NCBI GenBank assembly: GCA_951406725.2
Contig: OX597816.1
Location: 95,294,001 to 95,358,000 of the forward strand
Origin: Octopus vulgaris
Taxonomy: Eukaryota
Direction: 5' to 3'
Length of the DNA: 64,000 nucleotides
Position 1 is the stretch's first letter, and every line of letters starts with the position of its first letter. Under the pieces are notes generated by a model. That model saw nothing but the letters and a program-made list of their open reading frames with translations. It was not told the origin of the DNA and did no database searches. Positions 1,871 through 61,866 of the stretch are shown here, piece after piece. The translations under genes and the position numbers were made by a program.

Positions 1871-2927
1871 CATAGTTCCTTGATGCTTTTCAACATTGTT
1901 TTCTGCAATATGTCACAATAATCCATTGTTCTCTCAATAAATGTGAGTCCTCCCACACGAGTTGCACTCATGCATTTCCAAAGCTAACATACTTCCACCG
2001 CCGTGTTTCACGGTAGGTACGGTGCATCTGTCGCTATTATCTTCACCTGGTCGCTCCCATACACATTTAATACCATCGGACCCAAACATGTTGATTTTTG
2101 TCTCGTCAGAAAAAAGAATTTTCTTCCAAAACTCCTTTCCTTTACTCACATAGGTTTCGGCAAAGGAAAGACGATTTGATTTATGCCTGTTAGTGAGGAA
2201 AGGCTTCCGACGAGGAGTGCGTCCATGAAGATCACGCTGGTTCAAACTTCGGCGAACTGTTTCAGCGGATATACTCTTTCTACTAACGGAAGACATTTCT
2301 TGAGCCAAAGTTGAAGTGGTACGACGCCTGTCGTCCATCTTGCAACGTTGGATGTAGCGAATATCACGCGCAGTTAAAATAGGACCTGGATGATGTTTAT
2401 TGCTTAGGCGCCGAGGAGCTTTGTATTTCTGAATCCCTTTGGCAACTGTGTTTACGTTAATATGTATTCGTTTGCTAATTAACTTGTATCCTAAAACATT
2501 CTTGTGCAAATTAAAAATAATTTCATTCCAATCTTCAGACAATTATTTTCCTGTAATACCTTTTTATCACAATGACGAAGATTTTCATCACGGTGCACAA
2601 ATCAGAATTCCTGAAATGCAATAACAATGACCGGTGCAAAAATGCCAGGAGGAATAATTTATTAGAATTGAAATTACCTGGAATATCTGAATTTAGTAAA
2701 AAAAAAATATTGAATATAGCAAATTTCCTTTACGAAGTACAAAATTTTGTACATTTGTATATTTTTTTCATATCTTTGAAAATGTTTATTATTTGTGTTT
2801 CTATAATGTTTGCATGTATAATATATTTTATTCAGTATAAATTTAGTTTGATTTCCTTCTATATTGTCAGAGTAATTGCGATTTTACTGAAAATGTATAG
2901 GGGTGTGCATACTTCCGTGAGATACTG
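1871..2927 (-). mobile_element. Truncated Tc1-like DNA transposon (one terminus plus 5' two-thirds of transposase)
   Basis: Minus strand starts TA|CAGTATCTCACGGAAGTATGCACACCCCT (TA at 2928-2929), a Tc1-type terminus. Transposase ORF follows. The other end is lost at the (TACA)n tract. Confidence 0.85.
1875..2542 (-). pseudogene. Tc1 transposase pseudogene (HTH domains and start of DDE domain)
   Basis: ORF 1934-2542 has RRKPFLTNRHKSNRLSFA, W..ILFSDETKINMFGSDG and VPTVKHGGGSM. A frameshifted continuation (GLTFIERTMDYCDILQKTML) runs to about 1875. Confidence 0.9.
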
Positions 2928-3160: not shown

Positions 3161-3163
<3 letters not shown>

Positions 3164-3325
3164 CAGAGGTATAGCTGTGTGGTAAGAAGCTTGCTTCACA
3201 ACCACATGGTTGCATATGGTTTCAGCCTCACTACATGGCATCTTTGGCAAGTATCTTCTACTACAGCCACCGGCCGACCAAAACCTTGTAAATGAATTTG
3301 GTAGACGGAAACTGAAAGAAGAAGT
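3161..3325 (+). mobile_element. tRNA-derived SINE family A, 5' half
   Basis: GCTGTGTGGTAAGAAGCTTGC head, ..TTGGCAAGTATCTTCTACTA.. CORE-like block and GGTAGACGGAAACTGAAAGAAG; homologous to copies at 14551, 16858, 21640, 36095 and 52553. Confidence 0.85.
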
Positions 3326-3634
3326 ATATATATATATAACCCAACCACACACAAAATCACGCACACACATACACACACATAGACACGAATGCAGTTATAT
3401 ACATACACATACATAGGCACTCAATCACAAAAGCAAACAACACATCACCATTCATATGACTTGCACCCTATCACCTTCCTATCCTTTGAACCCTTGAACT
3501 TTCTAGAATCTTCTACATTCAACCATTTTTGACGTCACTGCTTATAACTGAATATTTTAAAGAAACACTCATTATCGCTATGGGCTCCGTGTGGGCAGTC
3601 ATCTAAGAGTTTTTGTTCATCTTGATGCTGACAT

Positions 3635-3739
3635 AAGTTCCTTGTTTTTCCTGATGAGAAGGCGGCATAATGCACCCCTTATTCCTTCGAAATTAGGAAT
3701 ATGCAGCCTTCGAAACATATGTCGAGAATAAAGGAATTT
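3635..3739 (+). ncRNA. Type I hammerhead ribozyme motif, intact core (probable PLE pseudo-LTR)
   Basis: CTGATGA 3651-3657; stem II GAAGGC 3658-63 / GCCTTC 3706-11; GAAA 3712-15; palindromic stem III ACATATGT; GUC ending 3723; stem I 3635-3650 / 3724-3739 pairs 14 of 16 (with GU). Confidence 0.8.
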
Positions 3740-4122
3740 TGTTAAATCGTCGTTCAACTCCATTCTTTCATTTATATATATATATATATATATACCATTT
3801 TTCCTTTCCTCACGTGATCATGTTCCTTTTCCTTCAGTCTGCTGTGCAGTCCAGACGCATTCGTATCTGTCTCTCATCTTTCCACTTATCAAAGAATCTT
3901 CTTCCTGCGTTCGCTACCTTACCTCGTCTGAGCCCAACGGCCCTGCTTGTTTCTATTCGTTTCGTTTGGCTTGTTGTATGTCCTGTTCTTCTTACTACCT
4001 TTGATCCTCCGCAAATAACAAATTTTATTTTGGTTTGCAGTAGCAACTGCCTTCAACTGCCTTTGCTCGCAACTCAATAGCTGTCCGAACGGATAGAACC
4101 CACATCTTTTGTAAAGATCTTC

Positions 4123-5400: not shown

Positions 5401-5594
5401 ATAATTTAATATTACATATTTGGATATACAAGCGGATACATGTGTGTGCATCTATTTTAAGAATGTATAAGAATGTATGTGGGTATATGTATGTATGTTA
5501 GTATATATATACGTGTCTGTGTATGTATATATACGTGCATATGTATATACAAATATATATGAGTGAGTCTATCTGAATATAAGTATACGTGAGT

Positions 5595-7395
5595 ACCTGT
5601 ATTTCTATTCAATGCTAATGAACAGTTGGAAAGAACATGTTTCAGTGTTCCGACCTTTCCGCATTTGCACATATCATTCTCTGAGACGTTCCATCTTACT
5701 ACATTTGTAGGCGATGGCAAAGCATCATAGGATGAACAAATCAGAAAACTTAGCTGAGATGTAATCCACCATGCTATCTCATTCCAAATTATTTTTTTTG
5801 CAACAAGATGTTCCTCCCATCTCATCATCTGTCCTTGTTGAGAGCATTGGGTCAAATGGAGCTTTCTTCTCTCTATTCCCTTTGTTTTGATGCTGTGCTA
5901 GCAACAGATCTGCGTTTGCTTCGCATTATACTTGCAAACAGTCTGAACCGATCGGCGCCAAAACCAAGTCCCTTTCGATGAATTTGCATCGCACCCACCT
6001 TGTGTGTAAGCGAAGACAGAATGTCATCAGTGTCTACTTCTGCTTTCCACTTCATGGCCATTTTTACATTTGGTGGATTACGACTGGTTTCTATATCCTT
6101 CGACTATCTCAGCATTATCACCGTTCATATCTTTCCTAGTTTATAAATTTCGACTATTGACGCCAGTGATAACTGCAACGAGCCTCTTTTACGATAGAGA
6201 GCTGAAATGTTCAATATCCGATGTAGGCATAGCTACTTTCTAATGAACACATTACATTTTGGTTTAATGATTTGAACTCGTGACAGTGCTACGTCGTATG
6301 TTAAAAATGTCCACGAAAGTCGCGGATACAAGCCGAACTGTAAACACCAAATTTTATATTTACCTGGTAGCTTTGAGTTGTCAATTGCTGTTAATTCAGT
6401 CTCGGCTTGTTTCATAATTTGCATCCCGCGACTCCTATCTGACAATGTTCCAGCGTATACGCGCCCCAAGCCCTTGACGGGTTCTTCCTTGACTGTTGGA
6501 ATACTTTCTTCAGCTATTTGAAACTTTACTTCTTTCTGCACTCCCTTAATTAATGTCAGACTACGCGAATTTTTCGCTCCGGATCGCATCCTTGGCTACT
6601 TCGCAGGTTCGTCTAGTCTCAACGGGGCTCTCTGCATGATTTGCTTGTCCCGTCATTCATGAAGGCTTTCATAGGTGATTTTACATGGGCGATTTGTTAC
6701 GAAAAGTCCACTGCTTTAAAAATCATCTCCATGACTAAGATAGACCACGTGATAGATATTGTGCAGCCATCAGCAATGCCAATCTCCAATCGGTGCCAAT
6801 CTTGTAAAATCTCCAACCGTAAACCTTATCTCGAAACTGTCATAATATATCCTTATTAATCTTGCTACTTTGTCTGTAATGTGGAAGTGGTCTATGGTTC
6901 TTATCAGTAATTCGTGTGGCACTGAGCCATATACATTAGCTATTTCAAGCCATACTACATTCAGATTTGTCTTATTCTGTTTGGTATCCTGGATCACTTT
7001 CGAAATCGCAAAAATAATGCTCAATGCATCTAGGGATCCCAGGGATTCCGACCTTTTGAACAGATTCATCAATATATCCATTACTCTGTAAATATGTCAC
7101 TTCTCCCTGAGAGAATTCCTATAAAGATATTGCCTTCCGCATTCAATAAGGGTATCGGCCTAAACTGATTTATAGTCTCTGCATTGACCTCCTTCGGCAG
7201 GTATATACCTTCTGCCTTACACCAATCCTTTACTAGAGTCTCTACGCGCCACAACTGTTGGAGTAGATCAAAAAGCTTCTTTTGCAGAATACTGCAATAT
7301 TTGTAAATTATATACGACAAGCCATCACCTCCTGGGGTACTCTTTGCTCTAGCTTTTCTCACGAAATCATTCAGCTCTTTCTCCTTGATCTCCTA
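5595..7395 (-). mobile_element. HERO-like (RLE-clade) non-LTR retrotransposon RT fragment, frameshifted and truncated at both ends
   Basis: Consecutive minus ORFs: KARAKSTPGGDG..W..AEGIYLPKE..QFRPIPLLNAEG; VVWLEIANVYGSVPH; LPGKYKIWCLQFGLYPRLSW; YDALPSPTN..W..CKCGKVGTLKHVLSNC (CCHC knuckle). Confidence 0.85.
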
Positions 7396-18603: not shown

Positions 18604-20013
18604 TAGCATTATGACCCGGCGTTGCCGGGTCATAGTGCTAGTTTGGTATAAATTTGTTAAATTAAAAATTTGTGGTAATAAAACACACAATGACATATTA
18701 AAAAGACGAATTAAAATTCCAGAGAAAAATACATAGTAGATAAATATACAAATTTACAAAAATACATAAAAGTTCATCTACGGGCCGTTTCGGAGATGCA
18801 TCAATTAATATGAAACATTATATATTTAAAATTGACATTCCCCTCGTCAGGATGTTTTTTACACACAACACATAGTGCACGGAAACAAATGCACAATTAC
18901 AAACCTGCTACATGCGAAAAACCAGACATTACGTACTCCCAAAAATTCTCCTAGATACTGAATGCTACTTTATAAGCATATAATTCAATCTAGCAGCTAT
19001 AGTAAATGGTATGAGTACATCTCCATCTGGACTAATTCACTTCTGCACTCAATTAAATTTTTCATCTTTTAATTTCTCCCATTCATACAAAGCCACATGT
19101 TCGAGTTCAAGTCCTTGATACATTTTATACTAATTACTATTTTTTTCTTTTAATTGTTATATAACGATTTAATTACCATTTTAATAAAATAAAATATATT
19201 TAATTACTAGGAAATGAATCTTTGATTCTAATCCAGAAACGTATGCGTTCATAATTGACCTGGACTGTTTGATTTCGTTATTTTTCTTCGGTTTTTTGCC
19301 ATATAATGAGTTACAAATACTGTTGCCGATGGGGACATATTTTTGTAGTAAAAGAAATAACAGTCCTCTGGCTGCTATTTCTAATACTTTCGGTATGTGG
19401 TCTAGCAACTTGTTGCAAAGACCCTCATTGTTATAATTACATATAATTTTACCGAATATGGTCCTTTTCCATACCGAAATATTACTTGGTGAAATTTGTT
19501 AATTTTATTAAATTAATCATATTTCACCCTTTATCTGTATTGATTACTTTACTCCCCTACGACAGAACTACGAATTTATCTTCGGCAGTATTATGTTGTG
19601 ACTCACGTGGTAGAAATTCTGGAGGGAGATACGAATTCACTTGTCTATATAAATGTGGATATGTTGATTAGCTTCTGTATGCCCCGATGTCGCCTGGTCG
19701 GAAATATGGAGGGTAAGATTTCCTAGCATTTCTAGATTTATTTATCGAAATATTATGTTGATAAAGGAAATGAATCTTTGATTCTAATCCAGAAACGTAT
19801 GCGTCCATAATTGACCTGGACTGTTTGATTTAGTTATCTTTCTTCATTTTTTTGCCATATAATTAGTTACAAATACTGTTGTCGATGGGGACATATTTTT
19901 GTAGTAAAAGAAACAGTCCTCTGGCTGCTATTTCTAATACTTTCGGTATGTGGTCTAGCAACTTGTTGCAAAGACCCTCATTGTTTTATATATATATATA
20001 TATATATATATGA
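18603..20013 (-). mobile_element. Non-autonomous Helitron
   Basis: Minus-strand 3' end has hairpin CCCGGC-AAC-GCCGGG, 8 nt, then CTAG|T at 18603. The 5' end runs into (TA)n-TAAAA at about 19985-20013 (exact end uncertain). Internal direct repeat of about 220 bp. Confidence 0.75.
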
Positions 20014-24660: not shown

Positions 24661-27160
24661 GAGTATAGAAATTCGGGGTGAGTACTTGATAATTATAAGC
24701 ACCTGTGTATACCGTTTGGTGGTGTAGGTGGTGGAGTAAATTGATCAAAATAAAATAAAAACATGATGCGAAGGATTCAGCGGTACATATGTTTCGGGCC
24801 TTTATTAGACAGATTTATAACAATGCATAATGTATGTCTGTGGCCTTCTTCAGCCGCGCACAACAGCTTCCGCAAGGACATGTGTTACATCAAAAATTCT
24901 TGGTTGGGGATGCAAATCCTCTCATCCACGTACGACATAATGCGGCAGCAGCATAGAATTGAAGCGTCCATCTCTTTCTTCTCTCAATGTAGAATGAGGA
25001 AAATTGGATGTTGAGGTAATGTAAATAAATAAATACATATATATAGGTGAAGATGGAGGGGCGAGAGTTCGGGACGAGGGATAAAAAATGTATAAAAAGT
25101 GTAAGTATAGAATAATATAAAAATGTAGAGGATAAAGAGTTGTAAGGAGATGTAAAGGGGGTATAAAGAAATATAAAGAAATATAAATAAATGTAAAGGC
25201 ATAAGGTTATAAAGTAAAAATAGAAATAGAAATAAAAATAAATAGAAATAAAAGTAAAAAAATCTGATAAAACCATGATAAAAGCGTAAAAGAATGTAAA
25301 GATAAGGGATGTATAGAGGTTACGGACCAAGCATGGTGGTCAGGAGATTGATAAAATTTAGTTGTAGAATTGTCAGTAAATCAACAGTAAATCAACAGTT
25401 TCGTCTGGGGACTTAATGCGTTGTAAATCAGAGCTGATGAGCATTTAATCTGGTTCCTTGAATTAAATGGACTTCTGGTACATACATATCATCATGGATA
25501 CATACACCCACATACACGCGTACATATACGCCTCCAAGCATATAAGCATACACACGCACTCGCGTTTAAACACGTCCATAAACACACACGCACCCACACG
25601 CACGCGCGTACACACACATACATACAACAGAATATCCGCATATATACACGGACATTACGCGCGTACACGCTCACATGTATATACGCGCGCCCATCACTAC
25701 ATACACACACGTATATGCCCACGCCTCTAGGTCCGGGTATAAGATATTAAAGGATGTGTATAAGAACGTAAGTAAAGAATCCCGTACTCATGTCAATACG
25801 CGCACGCACACACGGCTGTGTGTCCGTATGTGCGTGCACATATACACCCATACACACACACACAGAGACACACGCGCACATGGGTATAGCTATAAGATAT
25901 CGAAGTATGCATGTACATATATGCGCGTGCATATGTATGTATGCGTATACACACGTACGCGGACGCTCGTATATTCAAAAGATGGATTCATAGGTAAGTA
26001 AATAAACATATATAGAGGTGTAAAGCGATAAGTTAGGGGTAAGAATGAGGGTAAGGGTAAAGATTAGAAATAAAAAATACAGTATAAAATAAGAAATACA
26101 ATGTAATAGTTAGAAATGAAGTATAAGAATTATAAAAATTATAAGAGTTAAGGTAAGGGATGAAAATGAAAATGAGAATAAATGGAAGTAGAATAAAAGT
26201 AAAAATAAAATTAAAAATAAAAATAAATGGAAGTAGGATAAAAGTAAAAATAAAAATAAAAATAAAAATAAAATAAAATAAGATAAAAATATAATTTTGT
26301 AAAGTTTAACATGAGATGGAGGTGGTTGAAAGTTAGAGGTGTGTGTTAAACGTAGGGGCGGGCGGGGGGAACTGAAGATTGGAAGGGTGGGAAGTGGAGT
26401 TTGGCGGTGTGCGTTCAACATCTGAGTTAGAAATGTGAAAGGGTATAGATATAGGGAATTAAAGAGACTACATAGGGAGGATATGGGTGTAGGAGAAGAA
26501 ATATTTGGGGAAAAGAAGTCATATATGGGAGACAAAATTTGTATATATAGGGGGAAAATACAGGGAACCGTATATGCACATACACACACCCACACACACA
26601 CACACACACGCACATGTGTATATATATGTATATGTACACATACGTACACGTATGTGCACATACATACGCACACACACACACACACACATACACACGCACA
26701 TATAGGAAAGCGGGGTGTGCTGGAGCCGACAGGTTGCACCGGGTGGGAGGAAATTGCATGGGGGAGTTGGTATAAGACCTAAGCATTGTAGTATTTGAAA
26801 GTATTAATAAGTTTATGTATACAGGATGGTTTGAACTCTGACCTTTTGTTAATAAGATTGTGTTTGTCTTTGAATTTCAGGATGTTCAGGAGTTCTACAC
26901 AGCATAGTTGGCATCCTGCTCTATTATTTAAATAAGGTGCAGCTGATCCGATGATGGACCATCTGAGTTTGAAGCCTATGCATTTGTCTTTTAATTCCCA
27001 AATTCTTTTAGAGAGGGAGGTGCTGTTAGCCTTATGTCTGTGTCTCAGCGAGGACCGGTGGTTGTAGTATCTGGATTTCCAGGAGGTTGAGCAACCAATA
27101 ATATATATATATGATGTACAAGAAGGATATATATATATATATGATGTACAAGAAGGATAG
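24658..27160 (-). mobile_element. Penelope-like element 3' portion: GIY-YIG C-terminus, long low-complexity 3' region, hammerhead-bearing end
   Basis: YIIGCSTSWKSRYYNHRSSL..STSLSKRIWELK..WSII..CQLC..E..LINKRSEFKPSCIHK (26779-27100), followed on the same strand by the hammerhead at 24780-24857. Continuity of the intervening 2 kb is inferred. Confidence 0.7.
24780..24857 (-). ncRNA. Type I hammerhead ribozyme motif, intact core
   Basis: Minus strand: gcgg CTGAAGA aGGCC..(ACAGA/TCTGT)..GGCCc GAAA CATATG TA ccgc; stem I 4 bp, stem III palindrome ACATATGT, GUA triplet. Confidence 0.75.
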
Positions 27161-27299
27161 TTTAGGGAGAACAACGGAACCTTGGGGAATGCTAAAGTTA
27201 ATTGTGTGTGAATCAGAAAGGTTCTAATTAGCACACACTACAATAAAGCAAACTAACAAGAATTTGAATGAAACGGATGAGGTTCATAGGTTTGTAGCT

Positions 27300-31493: not shown

Positions 31494-32512
31494 GTTTTTT
31501 TTCTTTCTTTCTTCAAATTTTCTTCCATTTCTCGCCAAGTGTTTTCCATGCACATAGGGCAGAGAAGTTCATTGTATGCATTCCCAGATTACACACGCAA
31601 ATTCACACGCAAATATGTATTTAAAAAAATAAAAATAAATAAATTCATGAATGGATGTTGTTTTCATAGCGATAATACTCTTCTCAGTACATGAGCCGTT
31701 CCAGTTAAAACGATTTTTTGCACTTCCTGTAGGGATGGTAAGCCTGGTATTATTTTCAAATAGATTTCAGTATCTTTTTTTATCATTTCTAGAGATCCTA
31801 CAATCACTGGTACTGTAGTCGCCTTGAGATGCCACATTTTTTCAATTACTATATTTACTGATCTTGACGAATTCTTTCGCTGCTATATTGTGATCGCAAG
31901 GAATACTCATGTCAGTTAATAAACACATCCTTTTTGTCTGATCTTTGATAATAATATCCGTTTATTAGCTTTTATAGTGTTGCCGGTATGTACGGGGAAG
32001 TCCCAGAGAATCGACACATTTTCTCCCTCAGTCACAGCTTCAGGATGGTGTTTATACCATTTGTCAGCGGTTTTGATTTTATAATGCCGACATAATGTCC
32101 AGTGTAAATACTGGCCGATTCTGTCATGTCTTGCTTTATATTCTACAGGTGCTAAGACTCTACACCCTGAGATTAGGTGGTCTATAGTTTTAATCTCATC
32201 GTTACAGAATCGGCATTTTGCGTCAGCTCCATTTTTTTTTTATCACATTGGTTTGGTAGTTCCGGGTTAATAAGCTTTGGCCTTGAGCAGCTAATATGAA
32301 AACTTCACTCTCTACTTTTAGCCCTGAGCTTCGTAACCATCGATGCGTGAGTTTCTGGTCAACATCAGCTTGTGTGCTACAGGCCACATATTTGACATGC
32401 GGAGATTTCTGTTCCCATCTGCAAGCTAATTTTTCATGTGTTTTTGTCTTTGCAATTAATTTTATTTTCTCTGCAGCAGCAGTTGGCGCATTTCCTTCAA
32501 CCTGATCAATCT
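31493..32512 (-). mobile_element. R4/Dong-like LINE, 5'-truncated, with zinc knuckle and RLE endonuclease (frameshifted)
   Basis: CRFC..ETIDHLISGC..YKARHDRIGQYLHW..ILWDFPVHT..IKANK(P)DIII..CLLTDMSIP..QEVQKIVLTGTAHVLRRVLSL*; flanked by (ATT)n arrays at 31437-31492 and 32513-32735. Confidence 0.85.
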
Positions 32513-32513
32513 G

Positions 32514-32578
<65 letters not shown>

Positions 32579-32590
32579 TGTTATTATTAC

Positions 32591-32628
<38 letters not shown>

Positions 32629-44500: not shown

Positions 44501-45084
44501 CAATTATACATACAGGCACATATATGCGCAAACAAAAATAATATATAAGACGCACAAACTCGCGTTTGCGCAAGGACACGTTAAAACTACTAAGTGCTTA
44601 TTTTTACCGGTATATTTTCGCTTATAAATAAAACGTACAGTGAAAGGAAAAAATATTCAGGACACCGATAAAGTAGGTTATTTATCATATCGTCGAATAT
44701 AGACATACATTCACATATAAACCCACGCAATCATCAATGTTCGCACACAGGCATACAAACATAAAAATATAACATTCACATGCACATATAGCTATTGCCA
44801 TACATATACATAGTAGATAGATAATTATGAACACAGACACTACAATTTTAACTTCTATAAAAGAGATGTTTAATCTACGAGAGAGCATAATGCGTATGCA
44901 TTTATATAGATATATTTATATGAATATTGCTTGTGTGAATATACATTGATATTGTATGTGTATATATGTAGATATTGTATGTGTGTGTATACAGATACTC
45001 ACTCAAACATACATATAGATATACATAATGCAAACTATACATATATATGTGTATGTGTGTGTATAAATGGAGTTCTTTTATTCC

Positions 45085-45775
45085 AAACACTCATGTTCTT
45101 GCATCTGTAGGCATCACCTCAATCAAAGCTATGATTTTGAGACACCAAATGAGATGGGGTGGCCATATTGTTCGAATGGCGGATGAGCGCATACCCAAAC
45201 AACTGTTTTATGGTGAGCTTCCAGAGGGGAAACACTATCGGCGTAAATCTAAAAAACAGTTTAAGGGCGGCATAAAGACTACTATGAGGTCACTTGGAAT
45301 GGAACCAGAGGACATAGAAGCCCTTGCTTTGGATCGAGCTGGATGGCGAACAAAAGTGTGGAGTGGAGTGAAACCGTTTGAAGAGACCAGGATAACGCAT
45401 GCAATATTCAAAAGAGATTTCAGGAAGAATGTTAGATCGAGGTGAATCACAATGAGTTTTTTGTGCGAACAGTTTGTAACAAACCATGCCTTTCTTTTGC
45501 TGTGTTCAAATCTCATTTGCAAACCCATGGAAAACGAACCTCCAACATCTATTTTGCCTATATGTCTGTGCACACATTTGAAGGCAATGTATGCCAGAAG
45601 GTTTACACATCTAACGGAGGCCTCAAAAGATATTTTAAGATCTACAAAGATCAGAACTTATCTGCAGCTCTTGATGTTTCAAATCGGATATGCAATCTAT
45701 GTGGGTGTCTTTTCAGAACATTGTCTGGTTTAAAAAGCCACATCAGATGTCATGATAGTTCTAATTGTAGATAAA
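45085..45775 (+). mobile_element. RTE-clade LINE 3' end with C-terminal C2H2-like fingers
   Basis: QMRWGGHIVRMADERIPKQLFYGEL..ALDRAGWR; then CNKPCLS..KSHLQTH, CQKVYTSNGGLKRY and CNLCGCLFRTLSGLKSHIRCH. Confidence 0.85.
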
Positions 45776-52836: not shown

Positions 52837-54267
52837 TGTGTGTGTATGTGTGTGTGCGTACATTGGAATGTATATATACAGTGTTTCTTTCTATGCATTA
52901 TGTAAGTAATATTTGTACCCTTTCCTCTATGTGTAAATAAAAGCTTATGTGTGAATGCATGCGTATATATTGGTGAGTCTGGCTGCCTGCCTTCCTGTGT
53001 TTGTGCGTGAATATCTGTGGCTATGCTGACATTCTGGTTGCATAACATTCACTTATGTTTTATATATATATTATATTTGTCTGCATATCTATATGTATAT
53101 AATTATCTGCATATGAACCGGCCTCTAGTAAATTTGCATGCTTGCATGTTGGTAAAAATATACTATTAAGGGTTTCAGTAAATCGGATAAATCAATTTGC
53201 ATAAATAATGCATTCTGTCATTCTATACCATGTTTCGAAGGCATTTACGGAATATAACCAGTTCCAAATAAGCTCTCTGTATGTATTTAAACTAATGTGG
53301 CTTATTCCTATGTTTCCGTCTCCGAATAGATTGCACAAAAGGCAAGTTGTTTACATCTGACCTTTGAATGATTTACACACGAGATGCTTAACAAAAATGT
53401 ATAAATATATTCTGTAGAACATTAGAATACCAAACTAAAACACTATTAATGCGTCAGTTAATTAATAATCGAATTAACTGCCAAGAATTTATATAATCGG
53501 TTTATTTACATCATTAGATACATAAAAATACACATACATACACAAATACGTACATACATATATATACATATATACATACATACCTGCATACATGCGAACG
53601 TACATACATATACACATACATATACACATACATATACACATACATACATACATACATACATACATACATACATACATACATACATACATACAGTGTGTAT
53701 ATATGTATACACCGAACACACATTTATTTGGCTGCATATGTATTGTAGGGATGAGTCAATAGAATCTCATTTGTAAATAATGACTACAAAAACGATATGT
53801 AACAATGGACACATGTGTAAAATAATATTCTAATCATTTTCAAGGGGTTTATGGTTAATTATGGAGCTTGAAGGTTAGAAAACAATGAAAATATTAGTAA
53901 ATAGAGAAAGACAAATACTGCGAATCAATCAATAATAATTAAATGGTAACTATAATTTGAAGAAAGTATTACGTGCAGTTCTTCCATAGAAATTTATCTA
54001 ATTCTATTCATTCGAGTGTATAATTAAAATCTGCCAGAAATTGTTATTATACGTGAATTATATTTGTATGTATCTGTGTACATATATTTAAATATGTGCA
54101 TATTTGTATATGTGTATATCTATCTACCAATATATATATATATATATACCGGAATAAACAAATAAATGCGAAACAAGGTGGAAAAAAGAATACTCAAATA
54201 CAAGAGGTAGAGTAATATGCTTTCTTTAAAAGCAGCAGAAATATAACAAAAGCTATTACTGTATCTT

Positions 54268-54585
54268 TTCCTAAGAATTGCAATTGCAAAGATGAGACCT
54301 CCTGTCTGTTGGAAGGAAAATGTCTGGAGAAAGGAATTGTGTATAGAGCCAAAGTGCAAATAGGAAGCTCACTTGAATATAGAACTTACACAGCGGCTTC
54401 TGAAAATTCTTTCAAGACCCGATTTTATTCTCATAGAAAGTCCTCCCAATATTCCGAAAACAGGACAAAGACCAGCCTGGCAAAATATGTCTGGAAATTA
54501 AAAGAAAATGAAACCCGGTTTTTCAACGTGATATGGAGAATTTTAGATAAAACATCACCTTACAGGCACGGTGCACATAAAAGAA
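54268..54585 (+). mobile_element. Penelope-like GIY-YIG endonuclease fragment
   Basis: KNCNCKDETSCLLEGKCLEKGIVYRAKV..YTAASENSFKTRFYSHRKS..TSLAKYVWKLKE..IWRILDK..PY. Confidence 0.85.
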
Positions 54586-57378
54586 GATAGAGTATGCAGA
54601 TTCGAGGTGAGTACTGTTGGAGATAATATCCTCTACATATGAAACATGAATTATATATACATACTTGGTGGAAGTCAACTCATGACCGAGTAAGACGACT
54701 TCCTAGACTCAGTAAGTCCGTATCAACGCTCCCTGAGTCCAAGAAATTTGTGTGCGAAAATTTGTTTTCGGTGGATAAAGATTTACACAGCACTGGAACC
54801 ACTTTTCTGTGCAATCAACTATAAAATCAATGGCACAAGAGGTTCTGACGGTCAGTTACAAACTATATTTCAAATTTATTTCATATAAGTTTATCTTCTA
54901 GAAAGATGTTCTGATGAGAACTGGAGGCCCTTTACTCAATTTGGTTCATATGCTATCTAACCGATAGCTGGGACCATAACAGATGGTACCTCCCGGGTCA
55001 GACATAGGAACAACAGTGTTTAGAGATGGTTTCCCACTCCTCAAAACCCTAGAACTCGTGTAGCGGCGCTCCAATACCAGATGCCGTTTAAAGTCATACC
55101 TAGGTCACACACACACACACACACACTTAATTATGCGCATTTTTATGCATGCATGTACTTATGTTTGTATGTAAGCACACACACACATACGCACGCACAC
55201 ACAAATTAGAAACAAATCAAAGAAAATGGCTAAAAAAATCAACAGATGAAAGATATATATAAATATGAATAGGCGTTAATGAAATAAATTAAAATATATC
55301 AGATATATTTCAGAAGATTCTGGATAAAAAAAATTACTATCTTGGTTTGAAATTGACCAACATTGCTTAGAAATTATTTTAGCTGGAGTAATTTAGAAAC
55401 TATTAATGAAAAAAGATTTATTTTGATGAGATAAAATCAAACTTGCGAAATTTCTCAGCTACTTCTACATGAAGCATAAATATGTTTAAATTTGAATAAA
55501 TTTATGCTGGTAATATGTGTTATAGAGCCAGTTTCCATACCTGGTTGAAGATGTTTTAATATTTAAATAATATTTTCGGAGTTTTTCTTGTTTTGTAAGT
55601 GACTAGATGTAGCGTTGGCATCGTTGTCTTTTTAGAAATATTACAGTCATAGCTGTGTAGTTTACGAGTTTGGTTTTCAAAAACGTAACTGTGAGCTCGG
55701 TTACTTTGTATGTTATATTGACAAAGTACATTGTATTATAGACTAGGGATATCTTCCCTGTGGAACATAGAAGGCAGAAGCTGTACAGAAGCCCGTCTTT
55801 ATGTGTGTCAGTGTGTATGTGTATATGTATATGTCAAATTTTAAGTATATTATGGGCATATATATTATACGCATGCATATATATATATTTAGCGAAAGTA
55901 TATAGGGCATAGCCTTATAATCAGAGGGATGACTGAAAAGGAAAAATAATTACTGTATTCCGTCTGAATTATGCAGACGATGTTTTCTTTAGTATCACCT
56001 TCAAAATATAGGACTCAAGTGATCGGTCTGTTAGTAACACACTATCAAGCGACGGCTTCTTTTCAGCAAATGCAATATACAATATGTCAAGTAAATTACC
56101 TCAATTTAAGACCGATATCTCTATATTCATATTTTTAGATGTTGAGTGAAACCTTTCAGCGTTTATATAACACTGTAATAGAGGATTTGATGGTCATTTT
56201 TGACCATGTAGCTACACAAATACATGGAAGAGTTTTTGTTTAATTAACACTACAAGCCATTGCCCTGAGGGACAGTAAACCAATGTCATTCACTGTAGTT
56301 GAGGTCAACTGCCAAGCGCGTGTGAATATACGTTCAAAAGTTCAAGAAAAAGAGAACATTTATGGCGAATTAATGTGGAACTTGTATCTCTTGTATCCTG
56401 TGGATTACCAACAAATTTTCCAAATTTTCACAAAAACCTAGAAATACTCGGTTTCACGAATAATGTGCAAAAGAAGCTGGTGCGGATTCTCAAAATCCAA
56501 TCTATCTATTAGTGATAAACTGAAGATTTGTAAGACATTCCAAAAAGTCTCCATGTGAGATTCTTATGTGAATAGATGCACACATATGGGTGTTTGCATC
56601 GACAGTTGAACTGACATCAACTCAACCACATATTTGCAAACACCAGGATTTCTCTTAACTCAAGTTAGTGACCAGCTTGAACTCTCTCAAGAAGAACTTA
56701 TATTAAACTCAAGGAATAAAACATACGTATATATATACATACATACATGCATACATACATAAACACAGACAGACAGATACCCAAACTATGTTTATGTGTT
56801 ATGAAAACTGAAGCCCATCTCATTCATATTACTGTCACCATTTTACTGTAAACCTAACGAAAGAAGTGCATTGTTTGTTTGTATATAACATGAAATCAAA
56901 TGTTGTTGCCTACAAAATGAAAGTGAGGCGATGAATCCGATATGTTGATATTAAATAGCAATGTAATCATAGAATTACTTATTTTGAAAAAAATATTAAA
57001 ATTACATATTCTGTTGTTAAAGCAATGAAATATTAATTGTTAGTAGAAGGCCGGCAAACCATGCAACAGTTGAAAATGTGAAATTTAAAGCAGACAGCAA
57101 TAAGATGAAACGTTGTTAACTGAACGTTCATTTAATATGTAAAAGAAAAGCAAAACAAAGCAAAAACAATGATGAATTAATAAAGGATATTAACATACAA
57201 AGACACCATGAAACATAAGCAGTAGTAATAAGAGCGAATCATACATCCGAAAAGATTTTCAGCGAAAAACTTCGTCAGCAAATGAAAAAAGCAGGAAGAA
57301 AACACACGCTATTAATGATAATAAATGTGTATAAAAAGCAAAAACAAAAGACAATGAACATTTTTGAATGGCTTATAT

Positions 57379-60497: not shown

Positions 60498-61866
60498 GAT
60501 AGGTATCTGGTTTGGCCCAGATCTCCAAGTAGAAAAGAACTGGACTGAGGTATTGAACAAGGTCATCATCGTAGTCAAGACCTGGTCTTGACGGTGGCTA
60601 TCCTTGAAAGGAAGGGCAGAGGTCGCCAATGTGTTCATGGCATCGGTCATCATTTACGGCCTAACCTTCGTTCCTTGTCCAGATTCGTGTTTGAGCAAGT
60701 TGGAGAGACAGATCTTCCGCTTCTTGTGGAAGGGATCGACTCCACTTGTAAGGCGTTCCATGCGCAAAAATGCGTTGAGGTTGAGGCATCTCTGGCTTTA
60801 CCTGCATGGTGAACGGATGTGGCCTCCGCTTGCAAAACGGATGTTTCCCAGGTTCACTAGTTTTGGTGGACGAGAAAGCTGGTTTCGTCGATGATCGAGG
60901 TTGGGTACATACTATACGGAGTGCCGTAAGGCTCTCCTACAGTTGCGTCGCTCTGGTAATGCCAGCGATATTGGTACCACCGCGTCGTTCTAGAGCAGGT
61001 TGGTAGAGGCTGGAAACGATGATACCCTAGGGGAGACCATGGGTCTCGATAATAACTAGTTAGATATTTTGTTCCACAGGACATTCGGGCCGAGGACTTT
61101 GGATAACTTCCAAGATCTCTGGCTTGGCAATGTTACCGAGGGGGCTTACCCGTTCGGAATAAGCTCACCAGACAGACACGGCCAACCCGGTCCATTGGCT
61201 TGTCCAAGATGCGAGCAGGATAGGAAAACCGTTCTGCACGCTATTGTGAAGCGTCCGGAAGTGTCAGAAGTGTGGACTTATGCGGAACACCTGTTGTCGG
61301 ATTTGAGAAGAGTACAGCTGTCATCTGAGTCAGTTTTAAAAATTGACCCACCGGATATCCTCACGAAAGTAGGTAAGAATTGCTTTCTCGTCGTCGTCGT
61401 CGTCGTCGTAGTAGTAGTAGTAGTAGTAGTAGTAATTGCGAAAGAGGCGATATGGAAGACGAGAATGAAAGGAATGGCGACAGGCAACTTCATCTCCGGT
61501 CTCGGGCAGGTGAGATTCTTCCCCTTTTTACCTGAAAAGGAAAGTGAGGCTGGAGATAAAATGCCTGTCGGAAAGGATGTTTAAAGACAGATGGATACAT
61601 GTAGCTAGGATGCTGGGTGTGAAAGACTCCTCGTGAACGTGCGCTAAGGCTGAACAAAATGCTACCGGTAGTAGAACAGGGCTCGTGGGGTCGGAGCGTA
61701 ACCTGTTTTTCTATCTCATTGTGCATGTGTAATCATGTCTTTTGTATTGTATTTCATCCGATTTTATTGTAAACGTTTATAAATTTTTTTTATCGTTTGC
61801 GTGTCTAACCCCGATCAGGCTGTGCTATCCTCTCCATGTTGTCCACCTGTGGGCAATAAAGAAACA
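60498..61866 (+). mobile_element. Tx1/L1-clade LINE, 5'-truncated 3' portion
   Basis: GIWFGPDLQVEKNW..WS*RWLSLKGRAEVAN..LERQIFRFLWKG; CPRCEQDRKTVLHA..VW (zf-RVT-like); AKEAIWKTR; AATAAA at 61855-61860. Confidence 0.8.

What the first reader, a model, noticed from the sequence alone, without database searches (positions are those of the whole stretch)
3635..3739. Intact hammerhead with unusually long, branched stem II and 16-bp stem I, with no adjacent ORF
Seen: all core nucleotides are present (CUGAUGA, GAAA, GUC). Stem II is 54 nt: GAAGGC-G-GCAUA pairs with UAUGC-A-GCCUUC and encloses an AUUCCU/AGGAAU hairpin. Stem I pairs 14 of 16, and an AATAAA lies in its 3' strand just after the predicted cut (after 3723). 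Established: typical PLE hammerheads are minimal, with very short stems. Inference: an elaborated variant, possibly from a non-autonomous retrozyme-like element (about 3420-3770, bounded by microsatellites), in which ribozyme folding masks a poly(A) signal.
Basis: partly seen in the sequence, partly recalled or inferred. Interest (0 to 1): 0.75.

Follow-up and report, generated by a model that had tools for sequence, protein, structure and literature searches.

The report
Long-armed hammerhead in Penelope-like retroelements
This is a hammerhead RNA motif, predicted to cut itself only in pairs, at the end of a truncated copy of a common animal jumping gene; its second arm is about twice as long as in any related element checked, and the genomic copies suggest the gene is copied from RNA that has not been cut.

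Summary
The hammerhead is real: the core is intact, stem II is 54 nt and stem I pairs 14 of 16. Stem III is a perfect palindrome, and two copies are predicted to fold as a double hammerhead. It is not an orphan or a retrozyme. Window 3339-3773 is a 5'-truncated copy of a young Penelope-like retroelement (RT plus C-terminal GIY-YIG, Hydra-clade-like) inserted in (TA)n. A long-stem-II pattern matches 3,210 genomic sites (control 0). A second lineage (endonuclease 31% identical) has the same arm architecture in unrelated sequence, whereas 55 of 55 related metagenome loci with a hammerhead have stem II of 10-29 nt. Poly(A) masking is unsupported: AATAAA occurs in 10 of 30 copies and A-tails in 0 of 80. 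Copy 5' ends peak at an initiator-like site 153 nt before the cut (17 of 80), not at the cut (2 of 80), so templates were likely uncleaved. Cleavage is untested. The scan noted long-stem-II Penelope hammerheads before on other DNA. New variant of a known kind.

The parts
3339..3773 (+). 5'-truncated copy of a Penelope-like element: distal 3' UTR plus pseudo-LTR, with a private 24-nt deletion near 3485
   Evidence: 93% identity over 480 columns to long copy L016; shared boundaries; ORF upstream in longer copies
3530..3537 (+). TGACGTCA palindrome (CRE-like; name recalled), putative promoter element
   Evidence: Position; kept at -187 to -194 from the cut in subfamilies A, A', B and as TGATGTCA in one C copy; function inferred
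3542..3548 (+). TATA-like TTATAAC about 28 nt before the inferred start
   Evidence: present in A, altered in B (CTACTAAC); inferred
3569..3573 (+). Initiator-like TCATT; inferred transcription start near A3571
   Evidence: 17 of 80 copies have their 5' end at -155..-151 from the cut, 2.0 expected; Inr consensus recalled
3635..3650 (+). Stem I, 5' strand
   Evidence: compensatory pair U-A 14 / C-G 11 of 27 at the second position
3651..3657 (+). Core C3-A9, CUGAUGA
   Evidence: only N7 varies in alignment A1 (most rows were selected by a pattern that fixes the rest)
3658..3711 (+). Stem II, 54 nt: 6 bp, one mismatch, 4-5 bp, one-sided loop with CACC, terminal hairpin
   Evidence: outer helix 88% of cells paired in 27 representatives
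3712..3723 (+). GAAA, palindromic stem III (3715-3722) and C17; predicted cut after 3723
   Evidence: homodimer MFE -68.4 vs -61.0 kcal/mol for two monomers, with an 8-bp intermolecular stem III; cut site from the established consensus, untested
3724..3739 (+). Stem I, 3' strand, containing AATAAA at 3727-3732
   Evidence: hexamer not conserved
3740..3773 (+). Segment up to the short 3' end (about +50 from the cut), inferred reverse-transcription start
   Evidence: 58 of 80 copies end here, 22 of 80 carry a further tail of about 150 nt
3774..3794 (.). (TA)n target microsatellite, 3' side (5' side about 3326-3338)
   Evidence: 73 of 80 copies are followed by (TA)4 or more

Best explanation
This is the type I hammerhead motif in the pseudo-LTR of a high-copy Penelope-like retroelement, here in a 5'-truncated copy inserted in (TA)n; it likely sits in the 5' UTR of the element's RNA, is predicted to stay off as a monomer and to cut as a homodimer through its palindromic stem III, and was likely copied uncut by a reverse transcriptase that starts downstream of it. 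Shown: the motif, copy number, linkage to an RT plus GIY-YIG ORF, a native junction with the ATG 255 nt after the predicted cut, two discrete 3' ends (about +50 and +200), a 5'-end peak at about -153, and conserved pairing. Inferred: transcription from the pLTR at about 3571; internal RT initiation at the two 3' ends, as shown for the anole Poseidon element; ORF-less solo copies as cDNAs of the 5' leader (start, ribozyme, RT start) or of read-through RNA, as for this copy; cleavage only when two ribozymes meet (two pLTRs on one tandem transcript, or high RNA concentration), which would release unit-length or uncapped RNA. The long stem II is most likely a lineage-specific extension kept for its fold, pre-organising the monomer and offering a docking site for the element's protein; this last step is the weakest.
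For: Copy number: 1,584 candidates, 16 of 40 scored identical over 141 nt; 3,210 pattern matches, control 0. ORF linkage: 18 of 30 endonuclease-anchored loci carry the exact core 527-612 nt past the stop; near-full element of 3.54 kb with an 833-aa frame; one copy open for 800 aa from the ATG, and one pLTR-ORF-pLTR copy, among 15 examined. Dimer: palindromic stem III in different sequences in families A/B, D, H, near-palindromes in C and E; intramolecular stem III probability 0.01-0.02; cofold gives the double hammerhead. Uncut templates: 52 of 80 copies anchored 3' of the cut keep the whole core, 2 of 80 start within 3 nt of the cut (2.7 expected), 17 of 80 start at -155..-151 (p 6e-12 before correction for 34 windows). 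Selection on fold: 0 of 500 shuffles reach the paired fraction or covariation score; subfamilies B and C were first met by plain BLAST at 73% and 78% identity with cores intact. Precedent: PMC4209133 (dimer-type PLE hammerheads), PMC11167929 (internal RT starts, protein-assisted ribozyme, unprocessed RNA as substrate).
Against: No cleavage, 5'-end or splicing data: only contigs of runs guessed to be RNA were available. No fully open ORF among 15 long copies. P0001 has no Pfam RT hit and GIY-YIG scores below its cut-off, 19.1 vs 22.6 bits. Covariation is modest: pairs changed on both sides 9 vs 7.6 shuffled (125 of 500 shuffles as high), RNAalifold keeps only the outer stem II, the inner hairpin is conserved but hardly covaries, and the 27 rows are related and hand-picked. 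The -153 peak could be an RT stop or a preferred inversion joint; many of those ends are at inverted junctions, a second cluster at -113 to -117 is seen in ORF-bearing copies, and the peak could not be measured in subfamilies B and C. A religated circular template would also leave no ends at the cut. No pseudoknot or tertiary partner for the stem II loop was found.
Confidence: 0.78

Rival explanations
1. The long stem II makes a tertiary contact with the internal loop of stem I and lets the ribozyme cut efficiently as a monomer; genomic copies come from religated circles or from the fraction that escaped.
For: Stem I has a fixed unpaired U after 5 bp (23 of 27 unpaired) and stem II a fixed mismatch after 6 bp (24 of 27), at the heights where hammerhead tertiary contacts form (established). 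Stem III can form 2 bp, and 2-bp stems cleave somewhat as monomers in axolotl HHR_Amex2 (PMC7229834).
Against: Palindromy of stem III is kept across unrelated sequences. Copies stop at the initiator-like site, which needs linear uncut 5' leaders. No conserved long-range pairing was found.
Confidence: 0.15
2. The fold is kept as a protein-binding or replication signal of the element and rarely or never cuts in vivo.
For: No excess of copy ends at the cut. In the anole element, ribozyme mutants did not affect insertion in vitro and no RNA-seq reads ended at the cut (PMC11167929).
Against: The catalytic core and a cleavable NUH triplet are kept in families A-E and H, which is more than a binding site needs.
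Confidence: 0.15
3. Stem I was selected to hide a poly(A) signal until cleavage.
For: AATAAA lies inside stem I, and the other common form AGTAAA is a weak signal variant (recalled). A live signal 150 nt after the start would harm the element, so hiding it could help as a side effect.
Against: AATAAA in 10 of 30 copies, none at this place in D or H, 0 of 80 copies with an A-tail, and 3' ends about 41 and 190 nt past the hexamer. The signal would lie at the very 5' end of the downstream cleavage product.
Confidence: 0.07
4. A non-autonomous non-LTR retrozyme of about 350 bp.
For: Most copies are short and ORF-less (66 of 80 have 5' ends within 160 nt of the cut). Retrozymes are reported to derive from pLTRs (bioRxiv 10.64898/2026.07.22.740005, abstract and introduction).
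Against: No head-to-tail short tandems among the 100 places listed (18 inverted pairs, one same-strand pair 1.9 kb apart); Tandem Repeats Finder shows none here; 5' ends are ragged and continue into the ORF.
Confidence: 0.04

Closest known systems
Hydra clade of C-terminal EN+ Penelope-like elements (Craig et al. 2021, PMC8557442; sections 6 and 11, passages, File S1 Hydra sheet and File S2 read; supplement cut when stored)
   Same: Single ORF with RT and C-terminal GIY-YIG, DKT motif, RW motif, no CCHH, CxxC and CxH around E and N, (TA)n target, sense type I hammerhead near the 3' end, inverted truncated partner copies.
   Different: Stem II is 53-58 nt against roughly 11-25 nt in the listed Hydra hammerheads, including Hydra-1_oBim. 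The CxCX5C linker is missing (0 of 27 copies), replaced by an Asn-rich tract, yet (TA)n targeting persists. Unit 3.54 kb against 'generally <3 kb'. Tail about 150 nt against the 30-40 bp given for PLEs.
Minimal and palindromic-helix-III PLE hammerheads (Cervera and de la Pena 2014, PMC4209133; results and discussion read)
   Same: Type I, in the pLTR, palindromic helix III predicted to need a dimer, most genomic motifs solo, some in opposite-strand pairs 100-700 bp apart.
   Different: Their 'larger' helix II is 6-8 bp and helix I 2-5 bp; here stem II has an internal loop and second hairpin, stem I is 14-16 bp, and there is no extra base after A9.
Poseidon element of Anolis carolinensis (Frangieh et al. 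2024, PMC11167929; main text read)
   Same: Two discrete 3' ends downstream of the ribozyme that match internal RT starts; uncut RNA as template; AT-rich target.
   Different: There the ORF starts inside stem II and the tail is short; here the ATG is 255 nt past the cut and the tail is about 150 nt and ends inside a predicted intron.
PLE-X1_sMoe and PLE-X1_sTam hammerheads (File S2 of PMC8557442)
   Same: Precedent for a long stem II in a PLE: 9 bp plus a 35-nt loop, about 53 nt, flagged as non-canonical.
   Different: Plant, EN-minus, rDNA-targeted Chlamys-group elements; listed as a plain loop, with no described inner hairpin.
Non-LTR retrozymes (PMC7229834, passages; bioRxiv 10.64898/2026.07.22.740005, first fifth)
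   Same: Type I hammerhead, non-coding short copies in thousands.
   Different: No head-to-tail 150-450 bp tandems; sequence is continuous with a coding element.

Membership tests
Type I hammerhead ribozyme | Core C3-U4-G5-A6-N7-G8-A9, G12-A13-A14, A15.1-U16.1, H17 | tested here: met
Type I hammerhead ribozyme | Three helices, stem I open, G10.1-C11.1 pair | tested here: met
   stem III only 2 bp as monomer, 8 bp as predicted dimer
Type I hammerhead ribozyme | Self-cleavage after H17 | not testable with these tools
   Only contigs available
Type I hammerhead ribozyme | Match to an Rfam hammerhead model | tested here: not met
   the long stem II probably defeats the models (inference); not a defining feature of the class
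Penelope-like element, EN+ | Single ORF with RT and C-terminal GIY-YIG endonuclease | tested here: met
   (YRDD, IYQ..YIG, R, E, N); 443 homologues; Pfam GIY-YIG below cut-off, no Pfam RT hit
Penelope-like element, EN+ | pLTR/partial tandem, inverted truncated partner, optional tail, hammerhead in pLTR | tested here: met
   L124 native junction, L314 pLTR-ORF-pLTR, inverted pairs, tail in 22 of 80
Penelope-like element, EN+ | RT groups with PLE/telomerase RTs in a tree | not tested
   No reference PLE proteins among session sequences; motif comparison only
Hydra clade | DKT in place of DKG | tested here: met
   DKT at residue 75 of P0001 and in 120 of 120 homologues
Hydra clade | N-terminal RWK motif | tested here: inconclusive
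   RIRWL in native N-termini: RW kept, K replaced
Hydra clade | CCHH absent; CxxC and CxH on either side of E and N | tested here: met
   CGVC..E..N..CMH read; no two cysteines between GIY and YIG
Hydra clade | CxCX5C linker before the endonuclease | tested here: not met
   0 of 27 copies that reach the linker; present in 101 of 120 homologues and in family D. The window's lineage is therefore called Hydra-like, not filed as a full member
Hydra clade | Insertion into (TA)n | tested here: met
   73 of 80
Non-LTR retrozyme | Head-to-tail tandem units of 150-450 bp, each with a hammerhead | tested here: not met
Non-LTR retrozyme | No protein-coding part in the family | tested here: not met
Non-LTR retrozyme | Monomeric linear and circular RNAs | not testable with these tools
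   No raw RNA reads offered

The most novel reading that the evidence does not exclude
A distinct long-arm subclass of type I hammerheads (helix, mismatch, helix, one-sided loop, hairpin; 52-86 nt) is shared by at least two distant Penelope-like lineages in this genome and missed by Rfam. The arm is a regulatory domain, bound by the element's own protein, that holds a 5' UTR ribozyme off, so one RNA is switched between an uncut template for insertion and a cut, uncapped message for translation.
Probability: 0.2. Interest if true: 0.72.

Novelty: new variant of a known kind. Interest (0 to 1): 0.42.

Why it matters
What PLE hammerheads do is an open question. This young family gives three testable handles. 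First, copy ends map an inferred start, the ribozyme and two RT starts in one 350-nt leader, and argue that uncut RNA is the template and that solo ribozyme copies are by-products of internal priming. Second, a conserved long stem II that Rfam did not match in this window (3,210 pattern matches in the genome) suggests that short-loop descriptors undercount animal hammerheads, and it is a removable module for structure-function tests. Third, the lineage has lost the linker zinc-finger motif that PMC8557442 associates with (TA)n targeting but still inserts in (TA)n, a natural counter-example to that hypothesis.

Tried and rejected
Rfam: nothing relevant. Neptune or Naiad assignment: my first guess from memory, dropped after the motif comparison. 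Naiad 'half core' link for families D, E, H: six short motifs not found in the stored, cut supplement; left open. Expression, cleavage and splicing: no RNA holder listed; contigs of eight runs guessed to be RNA hold the pLTR but cannot show ends, and no joint across the predicted intron was seen; not used as evidence. The C20 array (period 3.2-3.7 kb) has no intact ribozyme and broken frames; uninformative. 5'-end mapping in subfamilies B and C failed for want of a suitable reference. Pseudoknot scan on A1 gave only short pyrimidine/purine matches that clash with other helices. Sigma-70 scan irrelevant to a eukaryote. PDB profile search: 0 hits. Lunse et al. 2017 on dimeric PLE hammerhead variants is not held; known only through PMC6765202 passages, and it may list long-stem-II variants. 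One search counted 8 copies twice; corrected. No tree of subfamilies was built, so the order of compensatory changes is not claimed.

Full report
Observation. All core bases are present at the stated place: CTGATGA 3651-3657, a 54-nt stem II, GAAA 3712-3715, C17 at 3723, and stem I with 14 of 16 pairs. The scanner expects 0.01-0.02 such hits per 64 kb and the fold has z -4.22. Stem III with its loop, ACATATGT, is a perfect palindrome; its intramolecular pairs have probability 0.01-0.02, while two molecules fold into a double hammerhead with both cores open (-68.4 against -61.0 kcal/mol). Rfam has no match. Stem II is not a multi-way branch but helix, mismatch, helix, one-sided loop and hairpin.

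What it belongs to. The window lies in a 2.8-Gb animal genome; the best named protein homologue is from Argonauta, so an octopod is likely (inference). The 141-nt region has 1,584 candidates, 16 of 40 scored being identical. Copies share their 3' end and are ragged at the 5' end; the window copy is 3339-3773. Longer copies run into the end of a GIY-YIG frame, and 18 of 30 endonuclease-anchored loci have the exact core 527-612 nt past the stop. A near-full element of 3.54 kb gives P0001. L124 shows the native junction, with the ATG 255 nt after the cut. Among 15 long copies one is open for 800 aa and one has pLTR-ORF-pLTR, but none is fully open. The motifs fit the Hydra clade as defined in PMC8557442 section 11: DKT, no CCHH, CxxC and CxH, (TA)n target. 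The CxCX5C linker is absent in 27 of 27 copies and RWK reads RWL, so I call the lineage Hydra-like. Pfam support is weak and no tree against reference PLEs was built.

The long arm. A pattern for core plus GAAG..CTTC stem II of 46-64 nt has 3,210 matches, control 0. In 27 hand-picked representatives (alignment A1) the outer stem II is 88% paired, stem I 75%, with a clear compensatory pair next to the core (U-A 14, C-G 11), and 0 of 500 shuffles reach the paired fraction or covariation score; the count of pairs changed on both sides is not above shuffles (125 of 500). The first four stem II pairs were fixed by the pattern and carry no information. RNAalifold keeps only the outer stem II. Family D has the same architecture in unrelated sequence and lies behind a second endonuclease, 31% identical to P0001, in 13 of 15 loci; family H has an 86-nt version, family E a 52-56 nt version. 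As a comparison, 55 of 78 related metagenome loci have a sense hammerhead, all with stem II of 10-29 nt; 23 gave none, many being cut short, and these loci are not the nearest relatives of P0001. File S2 of PMC8557442 lists short stems for Hydra elements and a stem II of about 53 nt for the plant PLE-X1_sMoe, so length alone has a precedent.

What the copy ends record. In 80 distinct copies taken in positional order by a 30-mer downstream of the cut (472 matches in all), 58 end about 50 nt and 22 about 200 nt past the cut; 73 are followed by (TA)n and none by an A-run. The extra 150 nt is the element's own 5' leader, the PLE tail, which PMC11167929 traces to two internal RT starts. On the 5' side, 52 keep the whole core, 25 end inside the ribozyme, 2 within 3 nt of the cut (2.7 expected), 1 just past it, and 17 end at -155 to -151 (2.0 expected). 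That peak falls on TCATT at 3569-3573, with TTATAAC at 3542 and TGACGTCA at 3530; I read it as the pLTR start (inference; motif names recalled; D. virilis Penelope has an internal TATA-less promoter, PMC2377424 abstract). ORF-bearing copies show ends at -143 to -145 and -113 to -117 and none at the cut. So templates were probably uncut, and most solo copies are cDNAs of the leader. An RT stop, a favoured inversion joint or circular templates are not excluded.

Mechanism and rivals. Most likely the ribozyme is off in a single RNA, which lets RT copy through it, and cuts when two ribozymes pair through stem III, as proposed for PLE hammerheads (PMC4209133; PMC6765202 passages). Cutting in a 5' UTR would uncap the message; PMC13725137 (passages) reports that self-cleavage can drive cap-independent translation in viral UTRs, a possible but untested role here. 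Poly(A) masking is not supported: AATAAA in 10 of 30 and AGTAAA in 12 of 30 ordered copies (two duplicate rows removed), none in D or H, no A-tails. A retrozyme is not supported: the 18 close pairs among 100 listed places are all inverted. Monomer activity through a tertiary contact and a non-cutting protein-binding role remain open. No usable RNA data were found.

Novelty. Six paper searches and one supplement search found no description of this arm architecture or of this family; Lunse et al. 2017 could not be read and the PMC8557442 supplement is cut. Other papers seen as passages only: PMC3088659, PMC6962438, PMC7229834; bioRxiv 10.64898/2026.07.22.740005, first of five parts. Earlier notes of this scan report long-stem-II Penelope hammerheads elsewhere in this and another genome; they are unchecked leads and were seen after my reading was formed. 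Verdict: real, a new variant of a known kind, interest 0.42.

Noticed in passing
window 18779-18850, minus strand (family E; L101-L115): A second long-stem-II hammerhead (52-56 nt, stem III ACGGCCCGT) in a repeat of about 1.3 kb with 374 candidates. No PLE protein match in 15 loci. It ends in a long palindromic hairpin plus CTAG before (TA)n, resembling Helitron/Helentron ends (recalled).
   Followed up: partly
L046:438 and L256-L290 (family D): Young family (1,091 candidates) with a 57-nt stem II of the same architecture in unrelated sequence, downstream of a second Hydra-type endonuclease in 13 of 15 loci; it keeps the CNCR linker and has one 3' end about 155 nt past the cut.
   Followed up: partly
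L080 and L291-L305 (family H): Hammerhead with an 86-nt stem II and palindromic ACAGCTGT, 742 candidates; no ORF reached within 1.5 kb in 15 loci.
   Followed up: partly
L015, L032, L051; L097:1961: A short canonical minimal hammerhead family (12-nt stem II) also occurs in this genome, and a 43-nt stem II candidate at L097.
   Followed up: no
P0001 residues about 580-712; L032-L060: Loss of the CxCX5C linker in subfamilies A, B and apparently C, with an Asn-rich tract in its place, while (TA)n targeting persists.
   Followed up: partly
L124:1439-1503: Predicted 65-nt spliceosomal intron (CAG/GTATCG ... ATACAG) in the 5' UTR; the long 3' end of copies falls inside it, which implies unspliced templates. 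No splice joint seen in contigs.
   Followed up: partly
window 26779-27237 (-) and 54216-54590 (+): Remnants of other Hydra-type endonucleases; the second keeps CNCKDETSC.
   Followed up: no
window 3161-3338: An older dispersed repeat (74-81% to other loci), probably a tRNA-derived SINE (recalled), in whose (TA)n tail the element inserted.
   Followed up: no
window 1934-2542 (-); 5457-7392 (-); 31916-32627 (-); 45029-45774 (+); 60592-61584 (+): Decayed ORF pieces of other mobile elements: Tc1-like transposase and several non-LTR retrotransposons (names from recall of the motifs).
   Followed up: no
G000:C20:23330722-23354614: Array of at least seven decayed copies of a related subfamily with a 3.2-3.7 kb period.
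   Followed up: partly
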